In this document: positions 13,635-61,684 of the stretch, one piece after another
Layout of the letters: every line of letters starts with the position of its first letter
Position numbering within the stretch: the first letter of the stretch is position 1
NCBI GenBank assembly: GCA_964479945.1
Contig: CAYZNS010000001.1
Span: 11,493-75,492, forward strand
DNA: 64,000 nucleotides
Reading direction: 5' to 3'
Source of the DNA: an uncultured Candidatus Saccharibacteria bacterium
Lineage (GTDB): Bacteria > Patescibacteriota > Minisyncoccia > Ryanbacterales > 2-02-FULL-48-12
Notes under the pieces: model-generated
What the model saw: the letters and a program-made list of their open reading frames with translations, nothing else
The model's database searches: none
What the model was told of the DNA's origin: nothing
Position numbers and translations under genes: made by a program

Positions 13635-13728
13635 CTCTCCCGAGCCGCACCCATGCGGCTCTTTTCTTTTCAAATACTCGCCGAGATGCTATGAATATAT
13701 CCAGATCATCTTTAAGAAGGAGAATAGT

Positions 13729-42230: not shown

Positions 42231-42258
42231 TAATCATCCAATATGCTATTATACTCGC

Positions 42259-44865: not shown

Positions 44866-46221
44866 ATGCAACTGTATACCACCCGCGCACTGTTTTGTCT
44901 TATACTCATAATTTTTATCACGGGCATGGGTGGATTTTTTATAGGACTGAAATTTTTTAGCGCCCATGTTTCCGACATATCGCATATTGTAACCCGCCTT
45001 GATATTCTTCACGCAAATAATAACGCGCTGTGGCGTAATTTTTCGCCAACGTGGCGTTCTTTAAAACGTGTTGTAGACCTGCCATATGTATTGTATTACG
45101 CATTTTATACAACAAAATTACCTGTCTATGAACTTTCGTTATCTCGATCAGATACAAAAAATCTCCTTGCAAATTTACCTGTGTATCCTGGAAATACACT
45201 GCTCTACGACGAACACAAAGAAGCAGTTAAAGGTTCTTTTCGTACTAGCGCTTACTTCACCGATGAGGCAAAAATTCGTTATCGTGGGCTGACATCAAGC
45301 CATTGGAATGCAAAAAAGAAATCGTGGCATATTATACTTCCCTCATCACAACCGCTTCAGGGAACACACAAACTCCGGTTTGTTTTGCCGGAAGACAGAC
45401 GCTGGGCTACATATTTAGTCAACCAGCATAGAGCGCAAAAACTCAACCTCATAATGCTTACCGCGCATTTTGGGCGACTCACTGTAAATGAAGAAAATGC
45501 GGGCATATATCTTGTGCAAGAGGGATGGACGCCCGCGTTGCTTACAAAAACCGGACGCACGCCTGACGGCATTATATTTTCTGAACGCGACGGAGCACTG
45601 CAGAAAAATCTTTTTATGCCTGAACATATAGACATGTGGGAAAACAAACTGACCGGAGAACCAGCCGCTTCACACAAAGCTCTCCGCGCCCTGCTTGATC
45701 TAATAGCAAACTCGCCGGATGATGAATTTGCCAATACACTGCCGCGTATTCTTAACATGGAAGCAACGTATAACTGGATGCTTCTTATCGCGCTCTCCGG
45801 AAGCGCGCATCAGAATAACTATGAAAACGCAGCTTTCTATTTTGATCCCTCATCAAATATGTTTGAACCGATTCCCTTTGATCTTTCGTTAAACCCTCTC
45901 GGCAGTACATGGAACCATGGAAAAAATAACCTGATACGCAGAATCATGAGCATTCCATCATTTCAAAAAGAATTCAGCGCGCGTATTGCGGCATACGTAC
46001 GCAACCCCCAGACACTGCAAGATGACCTTGCCGTATATGACATGACGGTCGACCAAATAAAACCCGACGTGTTAAGCGACATCAAAAAAATTCAGTCTTC
46101 CGCAGAAGTTCTACAATCGTTTATCGACCAACGGACAATTATAGAAACCAACGCGCATATCCTCGCTGATATGATCCGACAAAATGGAGCTATATACTAC
46201 GACCCCATCCCAAAACTCTGA
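44866..46221 (+). CDS. CotH-family (atypical kinase-like) protein with N-terminal membrane anchor
   Basis: CotH signature AKIRYRGLTSSHWNAKKKSWHIILP. Shares NFSPTWRSLKR and other blocks with the paralogs at 50490 and 52903. Confidence 0.7.
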   Translation: MQLYTTRALFCLILIIFITGMGGFFIGLKFFSAHVSDISHIVTRLDILHANNNALWRNFSPTWRSLKRVVDLPYVLYYAFYTTKLPVYELSLSRSDTKNLLANLPVYPGNTLLYDEHKEAVKGSFRTSAYFTDEAKIRYRGLTSSHWNAKKKSWHIILPSSQPLQGTHKLRFVLPEDRRWATYLVNQHRAQKLNLIMLTAHFGRLTVNEENAGIYLVQEGWTPALLTKTGRTPDGIIFSERDGALQKNLFMPEHIDMWENKLTGEPAASHKALRALLDLIANSPDDEFANTLPRILNMEATYNWMLLIALSGSAHQNNYENAAFYFDPSSNMFEPIPFDLSLNPLGSTWNHGKNNLIRRIMSIPSFQKEFSARIAAYVRNPQTLQDDLAVYDMTVDQIKPDVLSDIKKIQSSAEVLQSFIDQRTIIETNAHILADMIRQNGAIYYDPIPKL

Positions 46222-46296
46222 TTTACCGCTATAATAAAGACATTATCAGGTGAGTAATCATCAATTGCTCACAAAAATAACGATAGTGTCTTTATG

Positions 46297-46717
46297 ATAG
46301 AAGTACATCGACATCCATATAATTCGGATATAACAGGTGCGCAGTGGGAGCGCATTGAACCGTTATTGCCAAAACAGGTCGAAAAAGAAGTAATCCACGC
46401 GAGGTACTAAACGGTATTCTCTATGTGCTTTCAACCGGTTGCCGATGGAAAGACCTGCCACACGATATTAGTGCGTCTCCTTCTACCTGTAATAGGTGGC
46501 TCCTTACCGAAAGAATCATAGAACTATCTATCTTGGAAGACCGCCAAAGGATACGCACGAAAAACGGTATAACCAGCAACGGTGGAAAGTGGAACGAACA
46601 TTTAGCCGGGCGAACAATAATCGGAGAATTGATCGTATGTTGGAACGAACACAGAAATCATATCGGGCATTTATACGAGTATATATCATGAAACATTATT
46701 TAAACCTTTTATATTAA
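46297..46717 (+). mobile_element. IS5/IS1182-family transposase remnant (frameshifted, internally deleted)
   Basis: N-terminal ...ITGAQWERIEPLLP... then a frameshift to ...LNGILYVLSTGCRWKDLPHD... (DUF4096-type). Far C-terminal ...QQRWKVERTFSRANNNRRI..RYE tail. The DDE core is missing. Confidence 0.65.
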
Positions 46718-46857
46718 TGTATTTTGAGTTTTGGGATGACTTCATTGAAAACAAAGAATGAAACCAAATTTTTGCGAGCTAAAAATATTATCATTGATTT
46801 ATAGGCTTTTTATTGAAAAGTTGCACTTGTAAATTGAATTCAGCTTGAATTAATTTT

Positions 46858-47640
46858 CTATTTCTCCCACACCATCCAGGGCCGCTCCCCTTTATTGTAA
46901 TACGCATTCAATCCTTCCACGTGCTTAAACGTGTCCATGCAATGCCAAAACTTGTTGTGTTGGTAAATCGCAAGCTGTCCTTGAGACGCGATCTGCCGGA
47001 GCGGCCCTTGCTCAAAAATCATGGTACCTTCCGGCGAGAGAAACTCAAACACTTTTTTATTGCACACAAAAAATCCGCCGTTTGCCCAATCCTGCGATTG
47101 CGGCTTTTCGGTAAAGGTTGTTACTACGCCATTTGCCGCTTCAATGACCCCAAATGGATTGGGCGGCTGGACACCCGTTACCGTAACCATTTTATTTTTC
47201 TCGCGATGAAAACGGTATAAATCCAAGATATCCACGTCGGTAACGGCATCCCCGTATGTCAGCATAAACTCTTCGTCGTCCCCAATGTATTTTTGAATGC
47301 GCGCGATACGGCTGCCCGTTTCGCACGCCTGCCCCGTATCCGCGAATGTTATCTTCCAATTGGGCGTGCCATTATCGTGATGAAAAACTTCTTTCTTTCC
47401 CGAACCAAGCTTCAACGTAAAGTCATGAGCCAGCTCATCGTAGTTCAGGAAATAATTTTTTATCATATCGCCCTTGTATCCCAGGCACAAAATAAAATCG
47501 TTGTATCCGTAATGAGAATATAACTTCATAATGTGCCACAAAATAGGCCGATCGCCCACCATAACCAGCGGCTTCGGCCGATATTCCGTCTCTTCCCGCA
47601 AGCGGGTCCCCTGTCCCCCGCATAAAATAACTACTTTCAT
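46858..47640 (-). CDS. rfbF: glucose-1-phosphate cytidylyltransferase
   Basis: MKVVILCGGQGTRLREETEYRPKPLVMVGDRPILWHIMK matches the canonical RfbF N-terminus. Confidence 0.9.
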   Translation of the reverse strand: MKVVILCGGQGTRLREETEYRPKPLVMVGDRPILWHIMKLYSHYGYNDFILCLGYKGDMIKNYFLNYDELAHDFTLKLGSGKKEVFHHDNGTPNWKITFADTGQACETGSRIARIQKYIGDDEEFMLTYGDAVTDVDILDLYRFHREKNKMVTVTGVQPPNPFGVIEAANGVVTTFTEKPQSQDWANGGFFVCNKKVFEFLSPEGTMIFEQGPLRQIASQGQLAIYQHNKFWHCMDTFKHVEGLNAYYNKGERPWMVWEK

Positions 47641-47797
47641 AAATTATTCTAATTACCCTAATTGACCTAATTATTCTAAGGAAATCACAATGACCGAATG
47701 ATTTAAATCCCAAAAGAAACTATATATTGATGATTGGGTATTGGAATTTAGGCATTCCTTAGGTCAATTAGAATAATTAGATCAATTAGAATAATTC
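47641..47797 (-). mobile_element. MITE-like element, copy C
   Basis: Near-identical to copy B. Starts immediately after the rfbF ATG and ends about 10 nt before the stop of the next gene. Confidence 0.7.
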
Positions 47798-47806
47798 TCT
47801 ATACTT

Positions 47807-49168
47807 TTATATAATGCGCTTTGTGAATAATTTGTCAATAAAAGAACGCGCGCCCACAACGAAAAACAAAAAATAAAACGGCAGCACCGGAACCAGAAAC
47901 CGTGGCTCGGCGGGAATAATCAATAACGCATGAGCAATATTAAAATACGCAATTAAGAATATCAACAGCCACGCGAAACGCGCATTGCTTTTCACTGCTT
48001 TATAAGCGCCCGTAACTGCCACGGCAAGAAACAAAAACCAGATACCGCGAGTGCCCAGGATTATGCTTACTTTCTGCAATGGCGGAATTGTGTCGCGCGT
48101 GCCCACAAACATGCGCGTTACCGGAAAGCCGCGGCCGTTTTCAGGCGTGTTCAGATCAAAAAGAATAGGAACAGTCCCGGCCAGAAACTTACCGGGGCGC
48201 CGGATTATTTCCGCGATACCCAACCGCATAAGAACATCTTCCGCTTCCGCGCGCGTATATCCTTCTTGCAGCAGGCGGGAAAATAATGCTTTGCGTTCCA
48301 CCCCTAATTGTTGCGCTATGGGATTAGGACCATATCCCTTCATAACTTTATCTGCAACATAATCACCTGACACGGCGGCAAGCGTATGCATACCTATATC
48401 ACGCCACGCGAGCGATCCGTAGAGAGAACGGGTATAGACAATATGGCCAGCACGTTCTATCTGCGCCTCACCAAACAACAAGTAAGTACGTACCATCCAT
48501 CCCCCAACAAAAATAAATATAATAAAAAACGCCGCACCCGCGCGCTTAATTGTTGCGCGTATATTCGTTTTTTCATATGCCATCCATACAAGTACTATCG
48601 GCACTATATAGAGAGCTACCGGTTTTGTGAGAACAAGAATGCTCCCCGCAACGCCTGCCATCACCATATAGCGTGTTTGCGGATCCATACGATAGCGAAA
48701 AAACAGCCACACAAGGAGAAGAATGAGAAAAATTGCAAGCAACTCCGACCCTATCTCAAACACGTAAAAATTAAAACCCCAATATAAACCAGCGGCAAGC
48801 GGTACTAATACCACATAAGAAGGCGGCAACAACACACCGCTTATTCGCCAAAGCAAGAACAGCGAAGCGGAAAATAATAGCACGTGCCCAAGCCATGCCG
48901 CGGCAACCTGCTTACCGAATACGCCATACATGCCCGCTAAAAAAATGGAATACGCGGGCGGGCGGCGAAACAAGGCCTGTTCTTCGCCCAACGATCCCGT
49001 ATGTATCAAGGACAATGCGCGGGCGTTATAGTATTCTGAATCATCGGACAAGTCGGCAAATGAAGTCTCAAACAAATGGCCATTAAACGCCGCGGTACCA
49101 ACGCTCGCAAGAATACCAAGCGCGATAATAAAAATAATACTCGTAAACCCCGTAAAATTTGAAATCAT
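47807..49168 (-). CDS. GT39-like polytopic glycosyltransferase (PMT_2 / ArnT-like)
   Basis: Multi-TM GT-C architecture similar to 37350-38714. Confidence 0.6.
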   Translation of the reverse strand: MISNFTGFTSIIFIIALGILASVGTAAFNGHLFETSFADLSDDSEYYNARALSLIHTGSLGEEQALFRRPPAYSIFLAGMYGVFGKQVAAAWLGHVLLFSASLFLLWRISGVLLPPSYVVLVPLAAGLYWGFNFYVFEIGSELLAIFLILLLVWLFFRYRMDPQTRYMVMAGVAGSILVLTKPVALYIVPIVLVWMAYEKTNIRATIKRAGAAFFIIFIFVGGWMVRTYLLFGEAQIERAGHIVYTRSLYGSLAWRDIGMHTLAAVSGDYVADKVMKGYGPNPIAQQLGVERKALFSRLLQEGYTRAEAEDVLMRLGIAEIIRRPGKFLAGTVPILFDLNTPENGRGFPVTRMFVGTRDTIPPLQKVSIILGTRGIWFLFLAVAVTGAYKAVKSNARFAWLLIFLIAYFNIAHALLIIPAEPRFLVPVLPFYFLFFVVGARSFIDKLFTKRII

Positions 49169-50448
49169 GGTATATTTATCATACAGACCTCATGCTAAAA
49201 ATGATAGGAAAATTTTTAGGGACTGACACCGCATATATTGCGGGCGGCAGTTTTTGGCTCTCCCTCCATAAAATTGCGAGCATCGGCGTCGCTATTCTTC
49301 TCTCTGTCGCATACGCCCGTTATCTTCCAAAGGAAACCTACGGCACCTATCGCTATATTTTAAGTTTTATAGGGATTTTTGGCGTCTTTGCAATATCCGG
49401 CATGGGCACTGCCATTATCCGAAGCGTGGCGCGCGGATATGCCGGCACATTTCGGGCGGGCGCTAAAACAATTTTTCTTTTCTCCTGGGGCATCAGCGTA
49501 TCATGCATTGCCGCCGCGGCGTACTTTTACTATGCAGACAGCTCACTGTCGCTGGCTGTTGGATTTCTAATTGCCGCGCTCTTTGTACCGTTCAGTGAAG
49601 GACTTGGCGCGTGGCGAAGCTACTACACGGCAACAAAACAATTTCGCGCGGGCGCTCTTTTTTCTTCCGGCGTGCAAATAACATACGGCATTGTCATGCT
49701 CGGCGGAATAGCAATCATGGCGGTATATCCTATTCCACAGGTATTGCATGTTCCACTCTTGGCAGGAGCATATCTTGCCGCGCACGCGCTTCCCAACATT
49801 GTTCTTATGCAGCGGCTGTGGCACGAAATTCCCCCCGAAGCGCCGGCAGACGCTTCCGCCCTGCGGTACGGTTTTCAGCTAACCGCAAGCGAGATTCCCA
49901 ATACCATCGCCCATTATCTTGACTCAATCCTACTCTATAGCCTGCTTGGTCCCGCGTCGATCGCCATATTTTCATTTGCCACAGCGCCCGTGGAACAGAT
50001 AAAAGCGCTGTTCGGCACCGCGGCAAGCGTAAGCATGCCCAAGCTCGCAGAAAAAACAAGTGAAGAATCGCTTACGCTTCTGAAGCAGACGCTTCCGGGA
50101 AAACTCTATCGCGCATGCGCGCTATCTGCCGCAATAGTAGCTGCCTATATTATCACCGCTCCGTTCCTTTTTCAGTTCTTGTTTCCCCGCTATATAGAAT
50201 CCGTGCCGCTTACGCAGGTTCTGGCACTATCGCTCGTTTTTTTTCCGTTGGGAGTATTTGGCACCGCGCTGAAGGCAGAAGGAAATATAAAAAAGATATA
50301 TATGTTCAGCATAACAAGCCCTCTTATTCAAATTGCCGCCATTATAGCGCTTATACCTCTCTACGGCCTATGGGGAGCAGTAGCCGCCCGCGTAGCGGGA
50401 AGAACCATTCATCATTTTTTTCTTGCGTATTTATACTATCGCCACTGA
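49159..50448 (+). CDS. Wzx-type oligosaccharide flippase / polysaccharide biosynthesis protein (MOP superfamily)
   Basis: About 12 TM helices with the MOP-flippase layout; TTG start. Confidence 0.75.
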   Translation: MKSWYIYHTDLMLKMIGKFLGTDTAYIAGGSFWLSLHKIASIGVAILLSVAYARYLPKETYGTYRYILSFIGIFGVFAISGMGTAIIRSVARGYAGTFRAGAKTIFLFSWGISVSCIAAAAYFYYADSSLSLAVGFLIAALFVPFSEGLGAWRSYYTATKQFRAGALFSSGVQITYGIVMLGGIAIMAVYPIPQVLHVPLLAGAYLAAHALPNIVLMQRLWHEIPPEAPADASALRYGFQLTASEIPNTIAHYLDSILLYSLLGPASIAIFSFATAPVEQIKALFGTAASVSMPKLAEKTSEESLTLLKQTLPGKLYRACALSAAIVAAYIITAPFLFQFLFPRYIESVPLTQVLALSLVFFPLGVFGTALKAEGNIKKIYMFSITSPLIQIAAIIALIPLYGLWGAVAARVAGRTIHHFFLAYLYYRH

Positions 50449-50489
50449 TCTCGCGTTATATAGGGATATATGGTATTGTGGTTGCGCAG

Positions 50490-52919
50490 ATGAATATCCT
50501 ATTTTCTTCCGGTTTCAAAAAATTCAGCTTGGTACTTGTAGCGCTCATCACGCTTGGTAGCGCCGCTTTTTTAGTGTGGCCGGGGACCATAGAACGGCTG
50601 GATATTATCTCTTCCAACCCCCATCCGCTCATCCGGCATTTTGCGCCGACATGGCGCTCGCTAAAACGCATAACAGATGTGCCTTTTCTTTTTTTGTATG
50701 CGTATCGCGCGCCACAACTTCCATTGTATGAAATAACATTATCACGGGGAGACAAAACGACGCTCTTTGATAACCTGCCGGACTATCCCCGCGTAGACGC
50801 CATGTGGGAAAACTATAAAATATCCGTAAAAGGCGAATTTCGCGCAGGCGATTATTTCACAGAGGATGCTAAAATCCGCCCACGTGGCATAGGACCCAAT
50901 CACTGGAATGCTGTCAAAAAATCGTGGCAAATTAATCTGCCGGAAGATAATCCGCTTGGCGAGCGCACCACCCTGCGGCTTATCCTTCCTGAAGACAAAG
51001 GATGGATCTTCTTCCCGCTCACCGCAATGCGCGCGCGTGAACTGGACCTTTTGAGTCCGCGGGTTTCATTTGTGCGCCTGCGCATCAACAGCGTGGATAT
51101 GGGAACCTATCACCTGCTGGAAGGATGGGAAGAATCATGGCTTGAAGGCCAGCGGCGCGGCTTGGGACCTTTTTTTTCCAACTTAAATCTAGACGTAACC
51201 GATACAGACTTATTCCGTACCGATTCGTTATATCTGTGGGAGAACCGTTTTGCCGCAGAAACGCCCGCAGAATCTCACGATGTTCTCACATACTTTTTGG
51301 ATCTTGTTGCAAACGCGCCTGATGATATATTCGCGCAGGAACTGCCGCGCATAGTTGATATGGACATGTTCAACCGATGGCTTATAATTACTACCCTTTC
51401 CGGCAATTTTCATCAAGGGAATATTGCAAACCAGAACTGGTATCTCAATCCCGCCACGGGAAAGCTGGAACCAGTGTTGTTTGACACCGCATTGAAACCC
51501 ATTGGGACCACGTTTTCTCTTGCAAACAACCGCTTGGTTAGCCGTGCCATGCGCGTTCCGCAATTCAACGCCACATTCACGGAACAGCTTGCAGCATACC
51601 TGGCAGACGGCTCCCGCAAAGAACGCGCACTTGCGTTTTACGACAAAACATATGCTGCCGTACGGAACGATATTTTCAGCGATACAAAAAAAATACAGCC
51701 GTCGCTCTCCGTACTGCGCCACGTACCAAAAGAGCGCGAAACCATCGCGCACAACTACGACGCGCTTTCTCGCATGCTGGCCGAGAACGGAATGATAACC
51801 TTTACATTTGCCGAAGAGTCGTATCCACTGGAGAGAGAATTTAACACAGCCGCATATAAGAATACATTTCTACGCCGCGGGGCCTCCCTGACAGAATTTC
51901 TCCGTTCCCATCGGCAATTTGTATCACGCGGGGGGGACACGCTGGCGCTTCCGCGTGGAACGCACGTAGTTCGCAGCACGATCGTAGTACCAGAGGGATA
52001 CACGCTTGTAATTGATCCGGGGGCACGCCTGCTATTCGCACCCGGCATCTCGCTGTTTTCCTACAGCCGCGTGGAAAGCCGCGGCACGGCAACGCGCCCT
52101 GTTGCCATACAAGCGCTTGATCCTAAAAAACCGTGGGGCGTATTTGCCGTTTTGGAAGCGCCCGGCACGAACACATTTACGCATACTCATATTGCGGATG
52201 GCAGGGAGACAACGTTTGCCGGCAGGTATTTCAGCGGTATGCTCTCCGTCCGGTCAAGCAATCTTAATTTTGAAAACGGATCAATCGCACGATCCTATGC
52301 GGATGACGGCATTCATGTTTTCAACGCGCAGGGAATTATTACGCATACCCTTTTTCAAGATACTCTCGGCGACAGCATAGATATTGATTTTGCATCTGAC
52401 AACACGGTCATTACTCATAATACATTTGTGAATGCCGGCACAGACGATGATGATAATGGAGATGCTATAGATTTGAGTTTTTCTAAAGTTATCATTCGCG
52501 AAAACGTCATTACCGGCTGCGCGGATAAAGGTATCAGCGTGGGAGAAACGTCAACGCCGCTTATAGAAAAAAATACCATCATTGGCTGCGTATATGGCAT
52601 TGCGGTAAAAGATAGATCATCCGCGACTATAACAGACAATATATTGGCTGCAAACAGCATCGGCATCGGACTTTACCGCAAAAAACCGTATTTCATAGAA
52701 GGCGGGCGTGCACATGTCCGAAATACCATAGTATGGGACAATAAAACACAAATTACGGCGGATGCGTATTCATCCGTTGATATCGAACAAAGCGTAATAG
52801 AAAACGGATATGCAGGCACGGGAAATTCTGACGCGCAACCGGATTTAAAATCTCTGCTGACCGCAGATCTTTTTGACGTTCTGCAAACAACTTTAAAACG
52901 CTATGAACAAACGCTCTAA
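50490..52919 (+). CDS. CotH-family domain fused to a C-terminal right-handed parallel beta-helix (pectate-lyase-like repeats), membrane-anchored
   Basis: HFAPTWRSLKR, AKIRPRGIGPNHWNAVKKSWQINLP (CotH), then NGDAIDLSFSKVIIRENVITGCADKGISVGE...NTIIGCVYGIAV...NILAANSIGIGL beta-helix repeats. ATG at 50490 after the upstream stop. Confidence 0.7.
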   Translation: MNILFSSGFKKFSLVLVALITLGSAAFLVWPGTIERLDIISSNPHPLIRHFAPTWRSLKRITDVPFLFLYAYRAPQLPLYEITLSRGDKTTLFDNLPDYPRVDAMWENYKISVKGEFRAGDYFTEDAKIRPRGIGPNHWNAVKKSWQINLPEDNPLGERTTLRLILPEDKGWIFFPLTAMRARELDLLSPRVSFVRLRINSVDMGTYHLLEGWEESWLEGQRRGLGPFFSNLNLDVTDTDLFRTDSLYLWENRFAAETPAESHDVLTYFLDLVANAPDDIFAQELPRIVDMDMFNRWLIITTLSGNFHQGNIANQNWYLNPATGKLEPVLFDTALKPIGTTFSLANNRLVSRAMRVPQFNATFTEQLAAYLADGSRKERALAFYDKTYAAVRNDIFSDTKKIQPSLSVLRHVPKERETIAHNYDALSRMLAENGMITFTFAEESYPLEREFNTAAYKNTFLRRGASLTEFLRSHRQFVSRGGDTLALPRGTHVVRSTIVVPEGYTLVIDPGARLLFAPGISLFSYSRVESRGTATRPVAIQALDPKKPWGVFAVLEAPGTNTFTHTHIADGRETTFAGRYFSGMLSVRSSNLNFENGSIARSYADDGIHVFNAQGIITHTLFQDTLGDSIDIDFASDNTVITHNTFVNAGTDDDDNGDAIDLSFSKVIIRENVITGCADKGISVGETSTPLIEKNTIIGCVYGIAVKDRSSATITDNILAANSIGIGLYRKKPYFIEGGRAHVRNTIVWDNKTQITADAYSSVDIEQSVIENGYAGTGNSDAQPDLKSLLTADLFDVLQTTLKRYEQTL

Positions 52920-54258
52920 AAAACTGCGCCTGATTTTCATTGTTGCAATTATCGCAGCGTCCATCGGCTTTAGCACGGCTACTCTTGCCAACGCTGTTGA
53001 AATTCCCACCTGGGAAAATCTGCACTGGCGGCTTGATATTATGTATCAAAATCCTGATTCGTTCATCCGACATTTTTCTCCTACATGGCGGTCGATCAAA
53101 AAAATCGGGGACTTATATTACTTGCCGCAAACCCTGTTCCACAAATCGGAACTTCCCGTCTATGAGATAACTCTCACGCGCGCGGATCTGCGATTGCTGT
53201 TGGATTCGCTGCCCGCGCTTGCCGGCGGCAAACCGCATCTTACGGAAGAACATAAGGCGTCCGTAAAAGGAACGTTTCGCAACGGTGAAATGGAAACGGA
53301 CGTGCGGGTGCGCTACCGCGGAGTTTTACCGAACCACTGGAGCGCGCGAAAAAAATCATGGAATATTACGCTTCTTGATGAAAACACGGGCGATGAAATT
53401 CGTACCTTGCGCCTTTTTATCCCGGAAGACCGCTCGTGGGCAGCAGAATTGCTGGAAGCATACCGCGCCCGAAAATTCGGTGTGCTAACCCCCTCTATTG
53501 AATTTGTAAAATTAAAACTCAACGGCCATGATCTGGGTGTTTACATGAGCATTGAAGGGTTTGACCAGTCGTTTCTTGAATATAATAACCGCCCCGTTGG
53601 CGACATGTTCTCCGAGCAGGATATTGAAGACCGCCCGGATTACATGCGAGTGGATTCTTTAGAATTTTGGCAGGCACGCATACACAAAGAAACTAATCCT
53701 TACAAAGAAAACATAGCGGAATTTCTCCACGTTATATCGGACACCACTGACGAGGAATTCACGCGCCGCATCCCCACCTTGTTGGATATGGAAAAAATGT
53801 ACGGCTGGATGCTAGAGTCGCTTATAGCACGAAACTATCATCAAAAAAACTCGGGAAATCTAAATTTCTATTACGATCCCGAGCGCCACATTTTTGAGCC
53901 GATCGCGTACGACATGTTCTCTCGCGAACTCGGAGATACATACGAAGTTGCCCATAATAGACTTGTCAATAGAGTTCTACAACAGGAACAATTTCGTGTT
54001 TCGTTTGAAACAAAAGCACGCGCTTATGTATATGATCCGGAAAACCTAAAAAACGATCTCGCGTATTACGATGCCATGGCCGCATCCATAGAAAAAGATA
54101 TAATGGCAGATACCGCAAAACTGCCGCCGACGTATTTATTTTTCTCTTATACGGAACGGCATCGAAATGAAATAATTGCAAATTTTGAGAAGGTGCGACA
54201 GTGGCTGGAAAACGGAGAGCTCCCCATTACGTTTGCAGAAGAAATATACCCGCTATGA
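52903..54258 (+). CDS. CotH-family protein with signal peptide
   Basis: HFSPTWRSIKK, VRVRYRGVLPNHWSARKKSWNITL. Third paralog. Confidence 0.7.
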   Translation: MNKRSKKLRLIFIVAIIAASIGFSTATLANAVEIPTWENLHWRLDIMYQNPDSFIRHFSPTWRSIKKIGDLYYLPQTLFHKSELPVYEITLTRADLRLLLDSLPALAGGKPHLTEEHKASVKGTFRNGEMETDVRVRYRGVLPNHWSARKKSWNITLLDENTGDEIRTLRLFIPEDRSWAAELLEAYRARKFGVLTPSIEFVKLKLNGHDLGVYMSIEGFDQSFLEYNNRPVGDMFSEQDIEDRPDYMRVDSLEFWQARIHKETNPYKENIAEFLHVISDTTDEEFTRRIPTLLDMEKMYGWMLESLIARNYHQKNSGNLNFYYDPERHIFEPIAYDMFSRELGDTYEVAHNRLVNRVLQQEQFRVSFETKARAYVYDPENLKNDLAYYDAMAASIEKDIMADTAKLPPTYLFFSYTERHRNEIIANFEKVRQWLENGELPITFAEEIYPL

Positions 54259-54989
54259 ATAATCAGATATTTAAACGCTATGAATTTAAATACCACGTAC
54301 CGGAGTACTTTGTACCGAACATTGCATCGTTTTTATTGCGCCATGGCATGCAATTGGATCCAGCCGCCAGACAGAAACCGGGTTCTTTTTATACGGTAAC
54401 AAGTTTATATTTTGATTCGCCCACATTAAACGACTACCATGACAAAGCAGGCGGATTTCTTTCACGAAAAAAAATCCGCGTGCGCATTTATGATCCATTC
54501 CTTACTGAAAATACCAAAGAAATATGGCTTGAAAAAAAAGCAAAGTACAATATGTGGGTCGCAAAAAAACGCGCGCTCCTTACCTTTACAGACTACAAGG
54601 AGCTTATGGGTAGATCCCGCGCCGGCCTTCTGCGGCAGTATGGCGCAGACTCCTATGCGGCAGAAACCCTATCACATATTGTCCGCGAACAAATGAAGCC
54701 GCAACTCATAACGCGCTATAGGCGCATTCCATTGCTGATGCCGGGACCGGCGGATTTCCGTATAACGCTGGACAGCCGCATAGAGACTTGCTTTTCGCGG
54801 GATTTGCGCTATACTGCACCCATGAAAACGGTACACCCTGGCACGGCGGTACTGGAAGTAAAATTCGGCACCATCCTCCCCGGCTGGTTCAGGACACTGC
54901 TTCAGCAATATAATTTAAGCAGGGAGTCGTCTTCCAAATACGCGAACGCCATGGAAGGCTTGCGAATCTATAATCCGATACCAAGATAG
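54255..54989 (+). CDS. VTC-domain (CYTH-like, polyphosphate-polymerase-type) protein
   Basis: MNNQIFKRYEFKYHVP N-terminus typical of VTC-domain proteins. ATGA overlap with the upstream CotH gene. Confidence 0.6.
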   Translation: MNNQIFKRYEFKYHVPEYFVPNIASFLLRHGMQLDPAARQKPGSFYTVTSLYFDSPTLNDYHDKAGGFLSRKKIRVRIYDPFLTENTKEIWLEKKAKYNMWVAKKRALLTFTDYKELMGRSRAGLLRQYGADSYAAETLSHIVREQMKPQLITRYRRIPLLMPGPADFRITLDSRIETCFSRDLRYTAPMKTVHPGTAVLEVKFGTILPGWFRTLLQQYNLSRESSSKYANAMEGLRIYNPIPR

Positions 54990-55025
54990 GTAATTTAAAA
55001 TTGCAAATATCAGATTTCAAATTTT

Positions 55026-55694
55026 ATGGAGAATTTTTTATATTTGGCAGAAACAGAAGTGAATGCGGCGGTTGTCGTGTTTAATATATTTTTTGTACTG
55101 GTTTTGGAACTCATCATCGCGTGGGTGTACCGAAAAACGCACCGCGCCCTTTCCTTTTCGCAATCCTTTCTATTCACCATGATCCTGATGGGGCTTATTG
55201 CCACCGTCATCATGATGGTTATTGCCGAAAACATTGTAGGCGCGTTCGCGCTCTTAGGCGCCTTCTCCCTGATCCGTTTCCGCACCATTGTGAAAGAAAC
55301 GCGGGATATCGCCTTCATATTTTTTGCGCTCGCTATTGGCGTTGCCGGAGGAACAAACAATTATGTCGTTGCCGGAATTGGAACTGTTCTTATATCCCTC
55401 ATTATTCTCTTTTTTGATAAGATAAACTTTGGATCCGCCGCGCGCGGCGGGCATCTCCTCCTGGTGGTAGCCAAAGAGCCGTTTGATCCAACTACGCACC
55501 CGGCGCTCCAGGCAGGCACCGTCTCTTCTTACGTACTAAACCTCAAAACGCTTGCGGAAAACATGCGTGAATATACCCTGGGCGTCCGCCTCAAAGACGA
55601 AAACGGCGTAACGCGCCTGATAGACTCCCTCAAAAAAGAGCAGCTCGTAGAGCACGTGGAACTCATGAGCGGAAAAAATGCTGTTGAGTATTAA
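55026..55694 (+). CDS. DUF4956-family membrane protein
   Basis: ...GAFALLGAFSLIRFRTIVKETRDIAFIFFALAIGVAGG matches the DUF4956 core. Confidence 0.6.
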   Translation: MENFLYLAETEVNAAVVVFNIFFVLVLELIIAWVYRKTHRALSFSQSFLFTMILMGLIATVIMMVIAENIVGAFALLGAFSLIRFRTIVKETRDIAFIFFALAIGVAGGTNNYVVAGIGTVLISLIILFFDKINFGSAARGGHLLLVVAKEPFDPTTHPALQAGTVSSYVLNLKTLAENMREYTLGVRLKDENGVTRLIDSLKKEQLVEHVELMSGKNAVEY

Positions 55695-57513
55695 ACAATA
55701 TACAGAATCCCTTGTAGATTGGCGCTTTTTTCCGGCGCTTTTTATAATTTTACTCACTACATTTTCTCTTATTGTAACACCTGGGTACGAAAGCTTTACG
55801 AGTGATCAGGCAATTTTTCTTCCTCCCCTACTGCATAACCTCGACCCTTCTTTTTTCCCAAACACTGATTTGCAACATTCTCACCTCATACACTCGGAAC
55901 GATCCGTTATTCTTGATATTCTCGCTTTCTTCGTACGCAGAGGAACGAATTTATTATTGACTCTTTTTATATTAAGCGCCTTACTACGCGCGCTCCTTTT
56001 CGCGCTTCTCTATGCGCTCATTCTTTATTTCACTGAAAACCGCTTGCGCGCATCTTTTATATTGCTATTTTTCCTCACACCCTTTTTCATCCCGGGAACG
56101 GGCCATGTAACGATAGAAAATATGTTTACCTACCGGACGATTGCCGTGCCTGCCGGGCTTTTGTACCTCGTTCTGTACTTGCATGGAAAACGTTTTGTCT
56201 CTCTTATTCCTCTACTGCTCACATTTAGTGTTCATGCCATTACCGCCCTTCCTTTTTTCTGTTTTCATTTCTTGCATCTCTTACACACAGGGTGGCACAA
56301 ACGAATGGATCGCCTTGAAATCTTGCGCAACCTCTTACTCGGCATTACGCTTATTATTGGCATGATACTGTTTTTGGTTTGGCGAAGCAGTGGTGCTACA
56401 AACGCGTTTTTCCTGCATATGGACGAAGAGTGGAAACAACTTGCCAATCCACGCAATGCGCCGGCGTTTTATGCGTATTGGGACAGTAACTCTTATTTTT
56501 CCATTATCTCCTGGCTCATTCTCGGCAGCATACCTCTTTTGTATATGAAAGAATTCTTGCGCAAAGCGGAAAAGCGCGCTATTTTTCTAATTATTCTACT
56601 GGTTCCCATTGTTATGGGTTTGCTTGCCGCTATAGGCGAGCTATCATCACTACATGGAATTATTAAATTAAACCTACAGCGAGGAATTCTTTTTATATCC
56701 TTGTTCATACCACTTTTGGTAAGTATGTTAACGTTATGGCACGCGGAACAAAAACGCGAAGAGATACTTAAAAATACGTTTCTGATTTCCATCCTTGCTT
56801 GGTTTTTATTTAAAGAAAACTTTGTGTTTCTGCGAGAACAAATGCTCCTCTTCGTTCCTCCTACAGCCTTGCTATTTTACGGATTGCCGCGCGCCGCTCT
56901 CGCAGTGTTTGCTGCTACTGATGCGGCAGTAATATACCGATCCTTGTTTTATGGAGATGTTTTCTCAATCATCTCGTTCCATCTGGCACTGATTGCGGGG
57001 TGGATGCTTTCTGAATTATACGCAAACAGCACTGTATCATCCTCTTCTCTTGCACGCCATGGCGTAATTGCCGCCATACCAATCTTGGTAATTATGATTT
57101 TATTCTCATTAAACTCTTTTACCATTTATCCGGCATATTCTTATAATACGCCGTATATGGAATCATGCGCATGGATACAGCAACATACGCATAAAAGTAA
57201 TATTTTCATCGTAGAGCCGTTTGTTACCGATCCTCCGCCGGCAGATTTCCGTCTTGCCTGCTTACGGCCCATTTTTACTACATATAAGGAAGGTGGCGTT
57301 GTGCCCTACGACGAAAACCGCGCAGTCGGGTTTGAATGGAAAAAACGCTATGATCTGATATATGCGCTTAAAAACGACATCACGCTCATCGGTCAGATCA
57401 AACAAGCGTATCAGGTTGACTATATATTCTCGCAAACACCCCTTGCGCTTCCTCAACGCTATCCATTAGTATTCTCAAACGAAGCATATTTTATATATGA
57501 TATTCGAAACTAA
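55678..57513 (+). CDS. large polytopic membrane protein, hypothetical
   Basis: 611 aa with more than 12 predicted TM helices; no recognisable motif. Confidence 0.5.
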   Translation: MLLSIKQYTESLVDWRFFPALFIILLTTFSLIVTPGYESFTSDQAIFLPPLLHNLDPSFFPNTDLQHSHLIHSERSVILDILAFFVRRGTNLLLTLFILSALLRALLFALLYALILYFTENRLRASFILLFFLTPFFIPGTGHVTIENMFTYRTIAVPAGLLYLVLYLHGKRFVSLIPLLLTFSVHAITALPFFCFHFLHLLHTGWHKRMDRLEILRNLLLGITLIIGMILFLVWRSSGATNAFFLHMDEEWKQLANPRNAPAFYAYWDSNSYFSIISWLILGSIPLLYMKEFLRKAEKRAIFLIILLVPIVMGLLAAIGELSSLHGIIKLNLQRGILFISLFIPLLVSMLTLWHAEQKREEILKNTFLISILAWFLFKENFVFLREQMLLFVPPTALLFYGLPRAALAVFAATDAAVIYRSLFYGDVFSIISFHLALIAGWMLSELYANSTVSSSSLARHGVIAAIPILVIMILFSLNSFTIYPAYSYNTPYMESCAWIQQHTHKSNIFIVEPFVTDPPPADFRLACLRPIFTTYKEGGVVPYDENRAVGFEWKKRYDLIYALKNDITLIGQIKQAYQVDYIFSQTPLALPQRYPLVFSNEAYFIYDIRN

Positions 57514-58402
57514 CCAACCGCTCGTAAGCGTAGTACTGCCCACGTACAACAGGGCATATATTCTGTCGAAGGCCATAGAAAGCGTACTAGCACAAACATA
57601 CACAAACTGGGAACTTATTATAGTAGATGATGGATCAACGGATACTACGCGCGAAATTATTGCCGGTTTTTCCAACCCACGCATTCGCTATATAAAACAC
57701 GAAGCAAACAAGGGCCTGGCCGCCGCGCGCAACACGGGTATCCGAAATGCGCGTGGGAAATATATCGCCAACCTGGATTCTGATGATGTGTGGATGCCCA
57801 AGAAATTGGAAAAAGAGATGCGGCGCTTTACGCCCGGCATTGATGTGGTATATTCCGGCTATGACCGCACGCTTCCCAATGGTCGCACGCTGCACCTCCC
57901 TCATCATCCGAAAGAAGGCAATCTCAAGAATGATTTTCTGGAATCAAACATCATTGGCATGGTTATGTCGACGGTGCGAAAAGAGATCTTTTTCAAATAT
58001 GGCATGTTTGATGAATCCGTCCAGGCGCTACAAGATTGGGAGTTATGGCTTCGCGTTGCTCCCCATTGTCAATTCGTATTTGTACCTGAAGTTTTAGTGA
58101 CCGGCAGCATACTTCAGGACAGTATTGCCAGCGATCATACAAAACGCCTTCGCTCGCGCGAACAAATATTCAGTAAACACGAACAACTGTTCTGTGCGGT
58201 TCCCGCAGTGTACGCAAAACACGCGTATAGCATCGGGCACGCATACGCTCTGCGCGGCAATATACCACACGCCCTGCCATATCTGAAAAAAGCATATCGG
58301 TCGCAACCATTCCGCATGCGCTATCTTGCCGCCTGTATATTGGCATGGATAACCGTGGTACTTCGAAGACCAAACATATACAAACAAATTGCAGCACGGT
58401 AA
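57497..58402 (+). CDS. GT2 glycosyltransferase
   Basis: VSVVLPTYNRAYIL...ELIIVDDGSTDTTREI...DSDDVW. Confidence 0.8.
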   Translation: MIFETNQPLVSVVLPTYNRAYILSKAIESVLAQTYTNWELIIVDDGSTDTTREIIAGFSNPRIRYIKHEANKGLAAARNTGIRNARGKYIANLDSDDVWMPKKLEKEMRRFTPGIDVVYSGYDRTLPNGRTLHLPHHPKEGNLKNDFLESNIIGMVMSTVRKEIFFKYGMFDESVQALQDWELWLRVAPHCQFVFVPEVLVTGSILQDSIASDHTKRLRSREQIFSKHEQLFCAVPAVYAKHAYSIGHAYALRGNIPHALPYLKKAYRSQPFRMRYLAACILAWITVVLRRPNIYKQIAAR

Positions 58403-58424
58403 GCACGCGTGCTAGCATACAACT

Positions 58425-61432: not shown

Positions 61433-61684
61433 TTACAATAACTCTTCTAACACAACTTTAGAAATTATTGCATTGAACACGGGGGCCATACCTTTATCGC
61501 CCCCGATTTTTTCTCCGTCATCAAATGGATCGGCATCAACCTGATACCACTCCATGCCGGCACCAACAAATGTCAACAATGCCGGGTCGTTCGCAATGTG
61601 CATATCAATGCGCCACAAGGTTTTTGCCTTGTTATACCCAACATTGACAACTAAATGACCTTCAAATCTAAAAGGAGATATCAT
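61433..61684 (-). CDS. small hypothetical protein
   Basis: 83-aa ORF with a GGGAGG RBS before the internal ATG. Could instead be the frameshifted C-terminus of the DUF218 gene. Confidence 0.3.
   Translation of the reverse strand: MISPFRFEGHLVVNVGYNKAKTLWRIDMHIANDPALLTFVGAGMEWYQVDADPFDDGEKIGGDKGMAPVFNAIISKVVLEELL

What the first reader, a model, noticed from the sequence alone, without database searches (positions are those of the whole stretch)
44866..55694. Three CotH-kinase-like paralogs linked to a VTC-domain protein and a DUF4956 membrane protein
CotH-family genes occur at 44866-46221, 50490-52919 and 52903-54258. The last is translationally coupled (ATGA) to a VTC-domain (CYTH/polyphosphate-polymerase-like) gene, followed by a DUF4956 membrane protein. 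This CotH/VTC/DUF4956 linkage recurs in diverse bacteria but its function is unassigned. Here all CotH copies carry signal or TM anchors (extracytoplasmic) and sit inside a glycan-biosynthesis region. That suggests a phosphorylation or polyphosphate-related modification of the cell surface rather than a spore-coat role.
Basis: partly seen in the sequence, partly recalled or inferred. Interest (0 to 1): 0.65.

Follow-up and report, generated by a model that had tools for sequence, protein, structure and literature searches.

The report
Surface CotH kinases with polyphosphate polymerase
A candidate-phyla (Patescibacteria) bacterium carries, inside a large cell-surface sugar-polymer gene cluster, three membrane-anchored CotH-type kinase-like proteins coupled to a yeast-Vtc4-like polyphosphate polymerase and a small membrane protein. 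This three-gene set recurs from Firmicutes to Asgard archaea, its function is still unknown, and it may be how cells deliver phosphoryl groups to the outside of the membrane.

Summary
Pfam assigns CotH to 44866-46221, 50490-52919 and 52903-54258, VTC to 54255-54989 (ATGA overlap verified) and DUF4956 to 55026-55694. All lie in a roughly 50 kb glycan-biosynthesis region of a Patescibacteria genome.

Two corrections. CotH2 also carries a C-terminal right-handed beta-helix domain. In all three paralogs the canonical catalytic Asp (B. subtilis D228) is an invariant His, while the Lys, Asn and metal-binding Asp are kept. This His type defines a large, almost always N-terminally anchored clade.

The VTC protein keeps every Vtc4 catalytic-tunnel residue. 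Among 81 loci from many phyla, VTC and DUF4956 are adjacent in all but two contig-truncated cases. A CotH gene is present in about 80% of loci, and it nearly always has an N-terminal hydrophobic segment.

The linkage itself was already noted in C. perfringens NELoc-2 and in Gram-positive Pel operons, without a mechanism. New here are the non-Pel Wzx/Wzy context, the spread to CPR and Asgard archaea, and the His-type active site.

Best model, which is inferred and not shown: a cytoplasmic polymerase docked on DUF4956 supplies polyphosphate to the outer face, where the CotH enzymes phosphorylate a surface glycan.

The parts
44866..46221 (+). CotH1: 451-aa CotH-family protein with an N-terminal membrane anchor or signal segment (about residues 8-26). 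His-type catalytic loop (SAHQNNYEN...FD). It lies apart from the triad, 4 kb upstream.
   Evidence: Pfam CotH 53.9 bits. Hydrophobic segment. Motif. 35-39% identity to the other two copies.
49159..50448 (+). Wzx-type polysaccharide flippase (Polysacc_synt). First gene of the co-directional gene string that contains the triad.
   Evidence: Pfam PF01943 56.5 bits. 41-nt gap to CotH2.
50490..52919 (+). CotH2: 809-aa protein with an N-terminal anchor, a His-type CotH domain and a C-terminal right-handed beta-helix (NosD/CASH-like) domain.
   Evidence: Pfam CotH 53.6 bits, Beta_helix 64 bits, NosD 36.8 bits. The same architecture is seen in relatives P0132, P0134, P0136 and P0141.
52903..54258 (+). 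CotH3: 451-aa anchored His-type CotH protein. Its start overlaps the CotH2 stop by 17 nt and its stop overlaps the VTC start (ATGA). Predicted active-site residues are K151, H313, N319 and D337.
   Evidence: Pfam 55.8 bits. phmmer to B. cereus CotH 5jd9, E 1.3e-9. AF2 model pLDDT 85; Foldseek to 5jda E 2.8e-18, TM 0.80. Motif conservation.
54255..54989 (+). VTC-domain protein, 244 aa, soluble. It is a Vtc4-like triphosphate-tunnel polyphosphate polymerase domain without SPX or transmembrane parts.
   Evidence: Pfam VTC 127 bits. Profile hit to yeast Vtc4 3g3q, E 1.1e-15. All Vtc4 catalytic equivalents are invariant. No TM segment in 79/82 homologues.
55026..55694 (+). DUF4956 membrane protein, 222 aa. 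It has five predicted helices (probably N-out, C-in) with an invariant cytoplasmic RFRxxxKxxxD loop, followed by a C-terminal ACT/ferredoxin-like domain.
   Evidence: Pfam DUF4956 55.7 bits; MgtC is below cut-off. AF2 model pLDDT 76.7. Foldseek matches ACT domains only. Invariant residues Y35, R84, R86, K90, D94 and G105 across phyla.
55678..57513 (+). 611-aa polytopic membrane protein (DUF6798). Its start overlaps the DUF4956 stop by 17 nt. Probably part of the glycan machinery; its link to the triad is by operon position only.
   Evidence: Pfam DUF6798 31.7 bits. Junction.
57497..61430 (+). Downstream co-directional glycan-tailoring genes with overlapping or short junctions: GT2, 2OG-Fe(II) oxygenase, formyltransferase, PIG-L deacetylase and GT2.
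   Evidence: Pfam. Junctions run from -46 to +22 nt.

Best explanation
The module is an envelope phosphorylation system in three parts.

Step 1 (inferred from residue conservation). The soluble VTC protein is an active Vtc4-type polyphosphate polymerase. It makes polyP from ATP on the cytoplasmic face of the membrane.

Step 2 (inferred from near-obligate adjacency and topology). The polymerase works docked on DUF4956. The conserved basic RFRxxxKxxxD loop and the ACT-like domain of DUF4956 face the cytoplasm. As an oligomer, DUF4956 anchors the polymerase, regulates it, and probably conducts the nascent chain to the outer face. This would be analogous to the coupled synthesis and translocation seen in the eukaryotic VTC complex.

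Step 3 (inferred). The membrane-anchored extracytoplasmic CotH enzymes have no ATP available outside the cell. They use the exported polyP as phosphoryl donor, or attach it, to modify a surface polymer.

In this genome the target is most likely the glycan made by the surrounding Wzx/Wzy cluster, because the triad sits inside that operon-like gene string and CotH2 carries a carbohydrate-type beta-helix domain. The His that replaces the usual catalytic Asp is a conserved, clade-wide feature. It marks altered chemistry rather than a dead enzyme.
For: 1. The domain assignments are well above cut-off. The CotH3 model superposes on B. cereus CotH kinase with TM 0.80.

2. The VTC profile aligns to yeast Vtc4 (E 1e-15). 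The equivalents of Vtc4 K200, R264/R266, K281, Y359/R361, R373, E426 and S457/K458 are present in 79-81 of 81 homologues; the K200 equivalent is 77 of 81, with N-terminally truncated ORFs accounting for some of the misses. The residue roles are from my own knowledge of the Vtc4 structure.

3. Context of 81 loci from Patescibacteria, Peregrinibacteria, Proteobacteria MAGs, Firmicutes, Bacteroidales, Spirochaetes and Asgard archaea:
- VTC and DUF4956 are adjacent in 80/82 sources. The two exceptions end at a contig edge.
- CotH is present in 66/82.
- Stop/start overlaps are frequent.
- Two searches started from CotH proteins instead also found DUF4956 beside them, and VTC too where the contig was long enough.

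4. Topology:
- 70 of 76 linked CotH ORFs have an N-terminal hydrophobic segment, and 3 of the 6 exceptions are cut by contig ends.
- 147 of the best 150 family representatives also have one.
- VTC proteins have no TM segment, whereas DUF4956 proteins score 2-4 (mostly 3) in the same scan.

5. Active site: K151, N319 and D337 are conserved alongside H313. Among the 150 representatives the counts are H 126, N 145, D 125 and K 130. That pattern argues for catalysis.

6. Glycan context:
- In the window, the gene string 49159-61430 has overlapping junctions.
- Elsewhere, glycan genes neighbour the triad. Examples are GT4 and GT2 genes interleaved with it in a Buchananbacteria locus and MBOAT-AlgX-VTC-DUF4956-CotH-GT2/PilZ synthase in Clostridia.
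- Glycan families lead the neighbour Pfam survey.

7. Genetics in S. intermedius: deleting the DUF4956 or the CotH gene changes Pel levels and aggregation (PMC12345266).
Against: - No biochemical activity is known for any bacterial VTC-domain, DUF4956 or secreted CotH protein.
- No kinase-fold enzyme is known to use polyP.
- The DUF4956 membrane domain matches no known channel. Its distant MgtC/SapB likeness and its ACT domain fit a regulator at least as well as a pore.
- No VTC-DUF4956 fusion was seen.
- Five loci with at least 7 kb on both sides have the VTC-DUF4956 pair but no CotH, so the pair can work without an adjacent CotH.
- The S. intermedius authors suggest the polyP stays cytoplasmic, and their VTC deletion had no clear phenotype (PMC12345266).
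- The canonical catalytic Asp is missing in all three copies here.
- Glycan genes are only about a fifth of immediate neighbours across taxa.
Confidence: 0.42

Rival explanations
1. Intracellular polyphosphate module plus an unrelated secreted kinase. VTC makes cytoplasmic polyP as a phosphate or energy reserve, or as a signal. DUF4956 is an MgtC-like membrane regulator or sensor of it through its ACT domain. CotH is a separately acting secreted protein kinase or regulator of polysaccharide synthesis. The genes are co-located only because they are co-regulated.
For: DUF4956 has weak MgtC/SapB similarity and an ACT-like domain, and MgtC proteins are regulators rather than transporters. Five loci have the pair without CotH. 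The authors of PMC12345266 favour cytoplasmic polyP and a link to phosphate metabolism. Many Patescibacteria have reduced metabolism and could use a simple polyP store (my knowledge, not tested).
Against: This model does not explain why the third partner is almost always an exported kinase-fold protein, translationally coupled to the polymerase, across bacteria and archaea. It does not explain why a soluble storage enzyme needs a dedicated membrane partner in 80/82 loci. It also leaves the exported kinase without a phosphoryl donor.
Confidence: 0.22
2. The CotH paralogs are non-catalytic. They would be pseudokinase-type surface adhesins or scaffold proteins, like the fungal CotH invasins, that bind polyP or glycan and organise the envelope. 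VTC-DUF4956 would supply the polyanion they bind.
For: The canonical catalytic Asp is replaced by His in all three copies. 17 of 150 relatives also have Asn at the metal-binding Asp position. Three paralogs and extra binding domains such as the beta-helix suit a structural or adhesive role.
Against: The His is itself strongly conserved (126/150), together with Lys, Asn and Asp of the active-site constellation. Dead enzymes usually lose such sets. The D-type CotH proteins linked to VTC in Firmicutes and Asgard keep the full canonical set.
Confidence: 0.12
3. The VTC-domain protein is not a polymerase. It would be another kind of triphosphate-tunnel enzyme, for example a tripolyphosphatase, an ATP or triphosphate hydrolase, or a cyclase. 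Its product or energy would control a DUF4956 transporter or signal to the glycan machinery.
For: The triphosphate-tunnel superfamily has many activities on a shared scaffold (PMC4641920). No bacterial VTC-domain protein has been assayed.
Against: The match is specifically to the Pfam VTC family and to Vtc4 rather than to CYTH or ThTPase entries. All residues that line the Vtc4 tunnel are kept.
Confidence: 0.1

Closest known systems
Accessory genes of Gram-positive Pel operons (S. intermedius SIR_1594 CotH-FN3, SIR_1593 VTC-like, SIR_1592 DUF4956/MgtC-ACT). Sources: Whitfield et al., bioRxiv 10.1101/768473; mBio 2025, PMC12345266.
   Same: The same three families are adjacent. CotH is predicted to be secreted, VTC cytoplasmic with catalytic residues, and DUF4956 is a four-TM protein with an ACT domain. 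The set sits next to exopolysaccharide genes. The function is undetermined.
   Different: There the gene order is different and the set lies next to pelDEADAFG with a DUF4832 hydrolase. The Firmicute CotH proteins keep the catalytic Asp. Here the context is a Wzx/Wzy-type cluster in Patescibacteria, with three paralogs, one beta-helix fusion and a His-type catalytic loop. The mBio paper states that the arrangement was not found outside Pel loci, which this survey contradicts.
C. perfringens NELoc-2 genes CP4_0460-0465: VTC, 'tubulin/FtsZ' (a 222-226 aa membrane protein), resolvase, VTC, 'tubulin', CotH (PMC2879425).
   Same: VTC, a roughly 225-aa membrane protein and CotH lie in a row. They are followed by a roughly 685-aa hypothetical protein and a chitin-synthase-like glycosyltransferase. 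The same roughly 700-aa anchored family follows CotH in several Clostridia loci here.
   Different: It is a pathogenicity-locus context and was annotated without interpretation. I did not test its sequences, so equating the 'tubulin' genes with DUF4956 is my inference from size and position.
Eukaryotic VTC complex (yeast Vtc4 with Vtc1/2/3; PDB 3g3q, 7ytj, 8i6v; PMC9911596).
   Same: The catalytic tunnel domain is homologous and keeps all key residues. It is a cytoplasmic polymerase associated with a membrane partner. The eukaryotic complex provides the precedent for coupled synthesis and translocation of polyP.
   Different: The protein here has no SPX domain and no fused DUF202-type TM helices. 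The membrane partner, DUF4956, is unrelated in sequence. Translocation is unproven, and the destination would be the cell exterior rather than a vacuole.
Bacillus CotH spore-coat protein kinase (PDB 5jd9/5jda; B. subtilis D228 and D251, PMC7821199).
   Same: Same fold (TM 0.80). The Lys, Asn and metal-binding Asp are conserved.
   Different: Bacillus CotH acts in the mother-cell cytoplasm with ATP, has no signal or anchor segment and is not linked to VTC. Here the D228 equivalent is His, the proteins are anchored outside the membrane, and the organism does not form spores.
Secretory-pathway kinases of animals that phosphorylate glycans or secreted proteins (Fam20B, Fam20C, POMK). This comparison rests on my own knowledge.
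   Same: They are kinase-fold enzymes acting on the non-cytoplasmic side of a membrane, on glycans or secreted proteins.
   Different: Those enzymes use ATP imported into the Golgi or ER lumen. No homology beyond the general kinase fold was tested here.
MgtC/SapB family
   Same: Both have a small polytopic membrane domain followed by a C-terminal ACT-like domain. Weak profile matches were found (Pfam 20.9 bits, NCBIfam 20.4 bits).
   Different: The scores are far below the family cut-offs (31.4 and 214 bits). MgtC is not linked to VTC or CotH genes.

Membership tests
CotH kinase family (Pfam PF08757) | Profile match above the gathering score | tested here: met
   53.9, 53.6 and 55.8 bits against a cut-off of 23.8 for the three paralogs.
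CotH kinase family (Pfam PF08757) | Atypical protein-kinase fold as in B. cereus CotH | tested here: met
   AF2 model of CotH3 has pLDDT 85.1. Foldseek to 5jda gives E 2.8e-18 and TM 0.80 normalised to the target.
CotH kinase family (Pfam PF08757) | Catalytic Asp (B. subtilis D228; B. cereus D224 by my count from the alignment) | tested here: not met
   It aligns with His in all three paralogs (H313 in CotH3), both by phmmer to 5jd9 and by hmmalign with D-type homologues. His is found in 126 of the 150 closest cluster representatives.
CotH kinase family (Pfam PF08757) | Metal-binding Asp (B. subtilis D251), together with the catalytic-loop Asn and the ATP-site Lys | tested here: met
   D337, N319 and K151 are present in all three copies. 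D is found in 73/76 linked CotH proteins, and the other three are gaps. That K151 is the phosphate-binding Lys is inferred from conservation, not from a structure.
CotH kinase family (Pfam PF08757) | Protein Ser/Thr kinase activity with ATP | not testable with these tools
   This needs an enzyme assay.
VTC domain / Vtc4-type polyphosphate polymerase (Pfam PF09359) | Profile match above the gathering score and homology to the Vtc4 catalytic domain | tested here: met
   127 bits against a cut-off of 23. Profile A1 against PDB 3g3q (Vtc4) gives E 1.1e-15.
VTC domain / Vtc4-type polyphosphate polymerase (Pfam PF09359) | Basic and acidic tunnel residues needed for polymerase activity (Vtc4 K200, R264, R266, K281, Y359, R361, R373, E426, S457, K458) | tested here: met
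   The equivalents are K12, R75, R77, K95, Y155, R157, R169, E201, S227 and K228. All but the K200 equivalent are found in 79-81 of 81 homologues across phyla; the K200 equivalent is found in 77 of 81. Their roles in Vtc4 are from my own knowledge.
VTC domain / Vtc4-type polyphosphate polymerase (Pfam PF09359) | Membership of a VTC complex: SPX domain, and DUF202 TM helices with Vtc1/2/3 partners | tested here: not met
   The protein is 244 aa with a single domain and no TM segment. The neighbouring membrane protein is DUF4956, which is not a Vtc1-like protein.
VTC domain / Vtc4-type polyphosphate polymerase (Pfam PF09359) | PolyP synthesis from ATP | not testable with these tools
   This needs an enzyme assay.
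DUF4956 (Pfam PF16316) | Profile match above the gathering score | tested here: met
   55.7 bits against a cut-off of 30.6. 264 homologues were found, all annotated PF16316.
MgtC/SapB family (PF02308; NCBIfam NF007431) | Profile match above the cut-off | tested here: not met
   20.9 bits against 31.4 (Pfam) and 20.4 bits against 214 (NCBIfam). This is distant likeness only.
CotH-VTC-DUF4956 gene module (as described next to Gram-positive Pel operons) | The three families encoded side by side on one strand | tested here: met
   In the window, 50490-55694 has a -17, -4 and +36 nt junction in turn. The same holds in 65 other loci.
CotH-VTC-DUF4956 gene module (as described next to Gram-positive Pel operons) | Location contiguous with pelDEADAFG | tested here: not met
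   No Pel-specific families were found among the window's neighbours, nor among the top 25 families of 138 neighbours in 34 loci.

The most novel reading that the evidence does not exclude
The His-type CotH proteins would be the first kinase-fold enzymes that work outside the cytoplasmic membrane on polyphosphate rather than ATP. PolyP would be threaded out by a VTC-DUF4956 synthase-translocon, a prokaryotic counterpart, and through the Asgard copies possibly a relative, of the eukaryotic VTC complex. The conserved His would take part in phosphoryl transfer, for example as a phospho-His intermediate or as a base suited to this donor, so that surface glycans or proteins become phosphorylated or polyphosphorylated.
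Probability: 0.18. Interest if true: 0.88.

Novelty: new variant of a known kind. Interest (0 to 1): 0.6.

Why it matters
Bacteria and archaea are not known to have a general way to drive phosphorylation outside the membrane, where there is no ATP. A widely distributed three-gene set joins a Vtc4-type polyP polymerase, a dedicated membrane partner and an exported kinase-fold protein. It is a concrete, testable candidate for such a route.

It would also:
- give bacterial VTC-domain proteins and DUF4956 a function;
- explain phenotypes seen in Pel-producing streptococci and perhaps in C. perfringens NELoc-2;
- bear on how ultra-small episymbiotic Patescibacteria decorate their surface;
- bear on where the eukaryotic VTC polymerase came from, since Asgard archaea carry the same module.

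If instead the polyP stays inside the cell, the finding is only a new context for a module that has already been noted.

Tried and rejected
I replaced it with hmmsearch -A / hmmbuild cycles.
- Foldseek against the PDB gave nothing for the DUF4956 membrane domain; only the ACT-like C-terminus matched. A sequence profile against the PDB gave no significant hit. So neither a channel fold nor Vtc1-likeness could be supported.
- I looked for VTC-DUF4956 or CotH-VTC fusions among the listed homologues and found none.
- The promoter and terminator scan of 44-62.5 kb was no better than shuffled sequence, so it says nothing about operon boundaries.
- NCBIfam has no specific model for any of the three families.
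- The original CotH structure paper (PNAS 2016) is not in the library. The nucleotide-pocket residues therefore could not be compared. D228 and D251 were taken from PMC7821199 and mapped onto 5jd9 by spacing.
- Model coordinates are not exposed, so the distances from H313 to D337 and K151 could not be measured.
- A tRNA scan of the window found nothing.
- I rejected the idea that the three CotH genes are recent tandem duplicates: they are only 35-39% identical, and the long-plus-short pair is conserved in other CPR loci.
- I rejected a spore-coat role on taxonomy and topology.

Full report
**1. What is in the sequence**

- CotH1, 44866-46221: CotH, 53.9 bits.
- CotH2: the mechanical ORF is 50115-52919. 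The ATG at 50490 is the credible start, because anything earlier overlaps the Wzx flippase gene 49159-50448. It scores CotH 53.6 bits and also has a C-terminal Beta_helix/NosD domain (64 and 36.8 bits).
- CotH3, 52903-54258: CotH, 55.8 bits.
- VTC, 54255-54989: 127 bits.
- DUF4956, 55026-55694: 55.7 bits. The MgtC match is below its cut-off.

The ATGA overlap at 54255-54258 was read directly. CotH3 also overlaps the end of CotH2 by 17 nt. The gene after DUF4956, a 611-aa DUF6798 membrane protein, overlaps DUF4956 by 17 nt. The whole plus-strand string from wzx (49159) to the second GT2 gene (61430) has junctions of -46 to +41 nt. The three CotH proteins are 35-39% identical to one another. They are therefore old paralogs, not recent copies.

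**2. Organism and setting**

The closest homologues of all three families come from Patescibacteria, specifically the Parcubacteria/Paceibacteria groups (Ryanbacteria, Parcubacteria Gr01-1014_29 and others). The exact proteins also occur on a metagenome contig.

The window from about 15 kb to its end is one large glycan-biosynthesis region. It holds:
- a MurB-like reductase;
- seven NDP-sugar epimerase/dehydratase/reductase-type genes (six between 16.7 and 35.3 kb, plus the RmlD-like gene at 41959-43146);
- a UDP-glucose dehydrogenase;
- two roughly 765-aa Wzy_C proteins;
- a Bac_transf initiating transferase;
- several GT2 genes;
- a DegT aminotransferase;
- a split transketolase pair;
- a sugar C-methyltransferase;
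- a nucleotidyltransferase;
- a PMT_2 GT-C enzyme;
- Wzx;
- a formyltransferase;
- a PIG-L deacetylase;
- a 2OG oxygenase;
- an asparagine-synthase-type amidotransferase.

No Pel-specific family was seen.

**3. The VTC protein**

A profile of 18 homologues hits the yeast Vtc4 catalytic domain (3g3q, E 1.1e-15). In that alignment the Vtc4 residues correspond as follows:
- K200 to K12
- R264 and R266 to R75 and R77
- K281 to K95
- Y359 and R361 to Y155 and R157
- R373 to R169
- E426 to E201
- S457 and K458 to S227 and K228

Their catalytic importance in Vtc4 is from my own knowledge. These positions are invariant in the alignment. In 81 homologues drawn from many phyla they are present in 79-81 sequences, except the K200 equivalent, which is present in 77. 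The protein is the tunnel domain alone. It has no SPX domain and no membrane helices. It is very probably an active Vtc4-type enzyme, but the activity itself is not shown.

**4. DUF4956**

The family is highly conserved in Paceibacteria, at 45-80% identity. The AF2 model has pLDDT 76.7. It shows five helices (2-38, 46-68, 70-81, 92-109, 113-133) followed by a beta-alpha-beta-beta-alpha-beta domain.

Only the C-terminal domain finds structural relatives, which are ACT/ferredoxin-like folds. The membrane part matches nothing by fold or by sequence.

Across phyla the invariant residues are Y35, R84, R86, K90, D94 and G105. Together they form an RFRxxxKxxxD loop between the third and fourth helices. 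By the positive-inside rule this loop and the ACT-like domain face the cytoplasm, the same side as the VTC enzyme. That orientation is an inference.

**5. The CotH proteins**

The CotH3 model (pLDDT 85) superposes on B. cereus CotH kinase with TM 0.80.

The two residues shown to be essential in B. subtilis CotH are D228 and D251 (PMC7821199). By spacing they correspond to D224 and D247 of the B. cereus structure. Two independent alignments, phmmer to 5jd9 and hmmalign with canonical homologues, give the same result:
- The D228 position is His in all three window paralogs (H313 in CotH3, motif H-Q-x-N).
- The catalytic-loop Asn (N319), the metal-binding Asp (D337) and a conserved Lys (K151) are retained.

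Among CotH genes linked to VTC, 38 have Asp and 30 have His at this site. The His type covers all Parcubacteria and Peregrinibacteria copies and a few MAGs labelled Proteobacteria. Firmicutes, Bacteroidales and Asgard copies have Asp.

A profile search of 1.84 billion cluster representatives finds 9322 relatives at E<=1e-3 and 675 at E<=1e-30. Among the best 150:
- 126 have His;
- 145 have the Asn;
- 125 have the Asp;
- 130 have the Lys, and another 17 have Arg;
- 147 have an N-terminal hydrophobic segment.

The His type is therefore a large, conserved, exported clade. It is not a set of decayed copies.

**6. Recurrence of the triad**

A scan of one genome per species found at least 577 VTC relatives. 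The best 80 loci span Patescibacteria, Peregrinibacteria, proteobacterial MAGs, many Firmicutes, Fusobacterium, Bacteroidales, Spirochaetales and Asgard archaea, including two loci in Lokiarchaeum ossiferum.

I used family HMMs built iteratively on six-frame ORFs. Results:
- VTC and DUF4956 are adjacent in 80 of 82 sources. The two exceptions end at a contig edge.
- A CotH gene lies in the same block in 66 sources.
- Of the 16 sources without CotH, 11 are cut short on one side or both.
- Five loci have at least 7 kb on both sides and no CotH.

The order is CotH-VTC-DUF4956 in CPR and most Asgard loci, often with 4- or 8-nt overlaps. In Firmicutes it is VTC-DUF4956-CotH.

Of 76 linked CotH ORFs, 70 have an N-terminal hydrophobic segment ahead of the domain, and 3 of the 6 exceptions are truncated. 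This was a Kyte-Doolittle scan, not a signal-peptide predictor. Starting from CotH proteins instead also recovers DUF4956 next door, and VTC too where the contig is long enough.

**7. What surrounds it elsewhere**

- In a Buchananbacteria locus the three genes are interleaved with GT4, GT2, GT1 and methyltransferase genes.
- Another Patescibacteria locus has PMT_2 and the same split transketolase pair nearby.
- In Lachnospiraceae, Fusobacterium and Ruminiclostridium the order is MBOAT-AlgX-VTC-DUF4956-CotH-GT2/PilZ (cellulose-synthase-like).
- In other Clostridia, CotH is followed by a conserved, anchored, roughly 700-aa protein with no Pfam family.

A Pfam scan of 138 genes within two positions of the triad in 34 loci puts GT2, UDP-glucose dehydrogenase, GT1/GT4, MBOAT, AlgX and Wzx-type flippases among the commonest families. 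These amount to roughly a fifth of neighbours. No Pel family appears in the top 25. Extracellular glycan synthesis is thus the recurring theme, though not a universal one.

**8. What was already known**

The row of VTC, a roughly 225-aa membrane protein and CotH appears in the gene table of C. perfringens NELoc-2 (PMC2879425, 2010). Whitfield and colleagues described cotH, a polyphosphate polymerase gene, DUF4956 and DUF4832 as accessory genes of Gram-positive pel operons (bioRxiv 10.1101/768473).

In S. intermedius, deleting the DUF4956 gene raised Pel levels and deleting the CotH gene lowered them. Both deletions reduced aggregation, and the VTC deletion had little effect. The authors suggest a link to phosphate metabolism, think the polyP may stay cytoplasmic, and state that they did not find the arrangement outside Pel loci (PMC12345266).

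My literature searches found no biochemical study of any of the three bacterial proteins and no mention of the module in Patescibacteria or Asgard archaea. The library is limited to open-access papers and preprints.

**9. Interpretation**

The shown facts are the family memberships, the residue conservation, the predicted topologies, the adjacency statistics and the glycan context. Everything about activity is inferred.

The most economical reading joins four observations:
- The polymerase looks catalytically intact.
- It is almost never found without its own small membrane partner.
- The usual third partner is a kinase-fold protein placed where there is no ATP.
- The only characterised relatives of the polymerase couple polyP synthesis to passage through a membrane (PMC9911596).

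I therefore propose that VTC-DUF4956 delivers polyP to the outer face and that the CotH enzymes use it to phosphorylate, or attach it to, a surface polymer. Here that polymer is most likely the product of the surrounding Wzx/Wzy cluster, with the beta-helix of CotH2 as the probable glycan-binding part. I put this at about 0.4.

The main rival, at about 0.2, keeps the polyP inside the cell and treats DUF4956 as an MgtC-like regulator. It fits the ACT domain and the five CotH-less loci, but it leaves the exported kinase without a donor and the coupling unexplained. Non-catalytic CotH proteins and a non-polymerase tunnel enzyme are less likely, at about 0.1 each.

**10. Verdict**

It is a new variant of a gene module that has already been noticed and never characterised. 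This analysis adds:
- its occurrence in a non-Pel, Wzx/Wzy-type cluster;
- its breadth, including CPR bacteria and Asgard archaea;
- the near-obligate VTC-DUF4956 pairing;
- the almost universal export signal on the linked CotH proteins;
- a large His-for-Asp active-site clade to which all three copies here belong.

The module deserves experimental work because it is a concrete candidate for extracytoplasmic phosphoryl supply.

Noticed in passing
L016, L020, L021, L025, L029, L037, L045, L062, L069 (Asgard archaea; L020 and L069 are both in Lokiarchaeum ossiferum CP104013.1): Asgard archaea carry the same CotH-VTC-DUF4956 block, with anchored, Asp-type CotH proteins of about 880-950 aa. This may bear on the origin of the eukaryotic Vtc4 polymerase. 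No phylogeny was made.
   Followed up: partly
L026:12773-14917, L030:12856-14976, L031, L041, L049, L055, L061: A conserved roughly 700-aa protein with one N-terminal hydrophobic segment and no Pfam family follows CotH in several Clostridia loci. By size and position it matches the 685-aa hypothetical protein after CotH in C. perfringens NELoc-2. It could be a fourth component in Firmicutes and is absent from the window.
   Followed up: partly
L082/L083, L053, L058, L026: Some Firmicutes and Fusobacterium share a conserved operon: MBOAT, AlgX-like (SGNH/DHHW), VTC, DUF4956, CotH, then a GT2-PilZ cellulose-synthase-like gene. In L082 this is followed by an acyl-carrier protein, an AMP-ligase and a GH16. 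It looks like an O-acylated, c-di-GMP-controlled exopolysaccharide locus.
   Followed up: partly
window 30433-32156 (- strand); L084:9043-10802: A split transketolase-like pair (N-terminal and pyrimidine/C-terminal halves as separate genes) sits inside the glycan cluster. It recurs near the VTC-DUF4956 pair in another Patescibacteria genome, which suggests a sugar with an added two-carbon branch.
   Followed up: no
window 19919-24503 (- strand): Two adjacent, overlapping genes encode roughly 765-aa proteins with a Wzy_C (O-antigen ligase/polymerase) domain and long extensions.
   Followed up: no
window 10996-14730: A polyamine-type gene group lies here: an Orn/Arg decarboxylase, a deoxyhypusine-synthase-like protein and a Porphyromonas-type peptidyl-arginine (agmatine) deiminase.
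   Followed up: no
window 55026-55694, last residues; alignment A3: The extreme C-terminus of DUF4956 is invariant (-E-Y) in Paceibacteria and is commonly -V/I-E-(F/I/Y) in other phyla. This hints at a docking tail.
   Followed up: partly
best 150 CotH representatives: 17 of the 150 His-type relatives have Asn instead of the metal-binding Asp. Some members of the paired long-plus-short CotH sets may therefore be inactive partners. All three copies in the window keep the Asp.
   Followed up: no
window 37350-38714, 38785-39378, 39905-40570, 40816-41529 (- strand), 61668-62375 (- strand): Several ORFs of 200-450 aa inside the glycan region have no Pfam family. One (37350-38714) has a weak NCBIfam hit to a Leptospira LA_3751/3752 putative glycosyltransferase family.
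   Followed up: no
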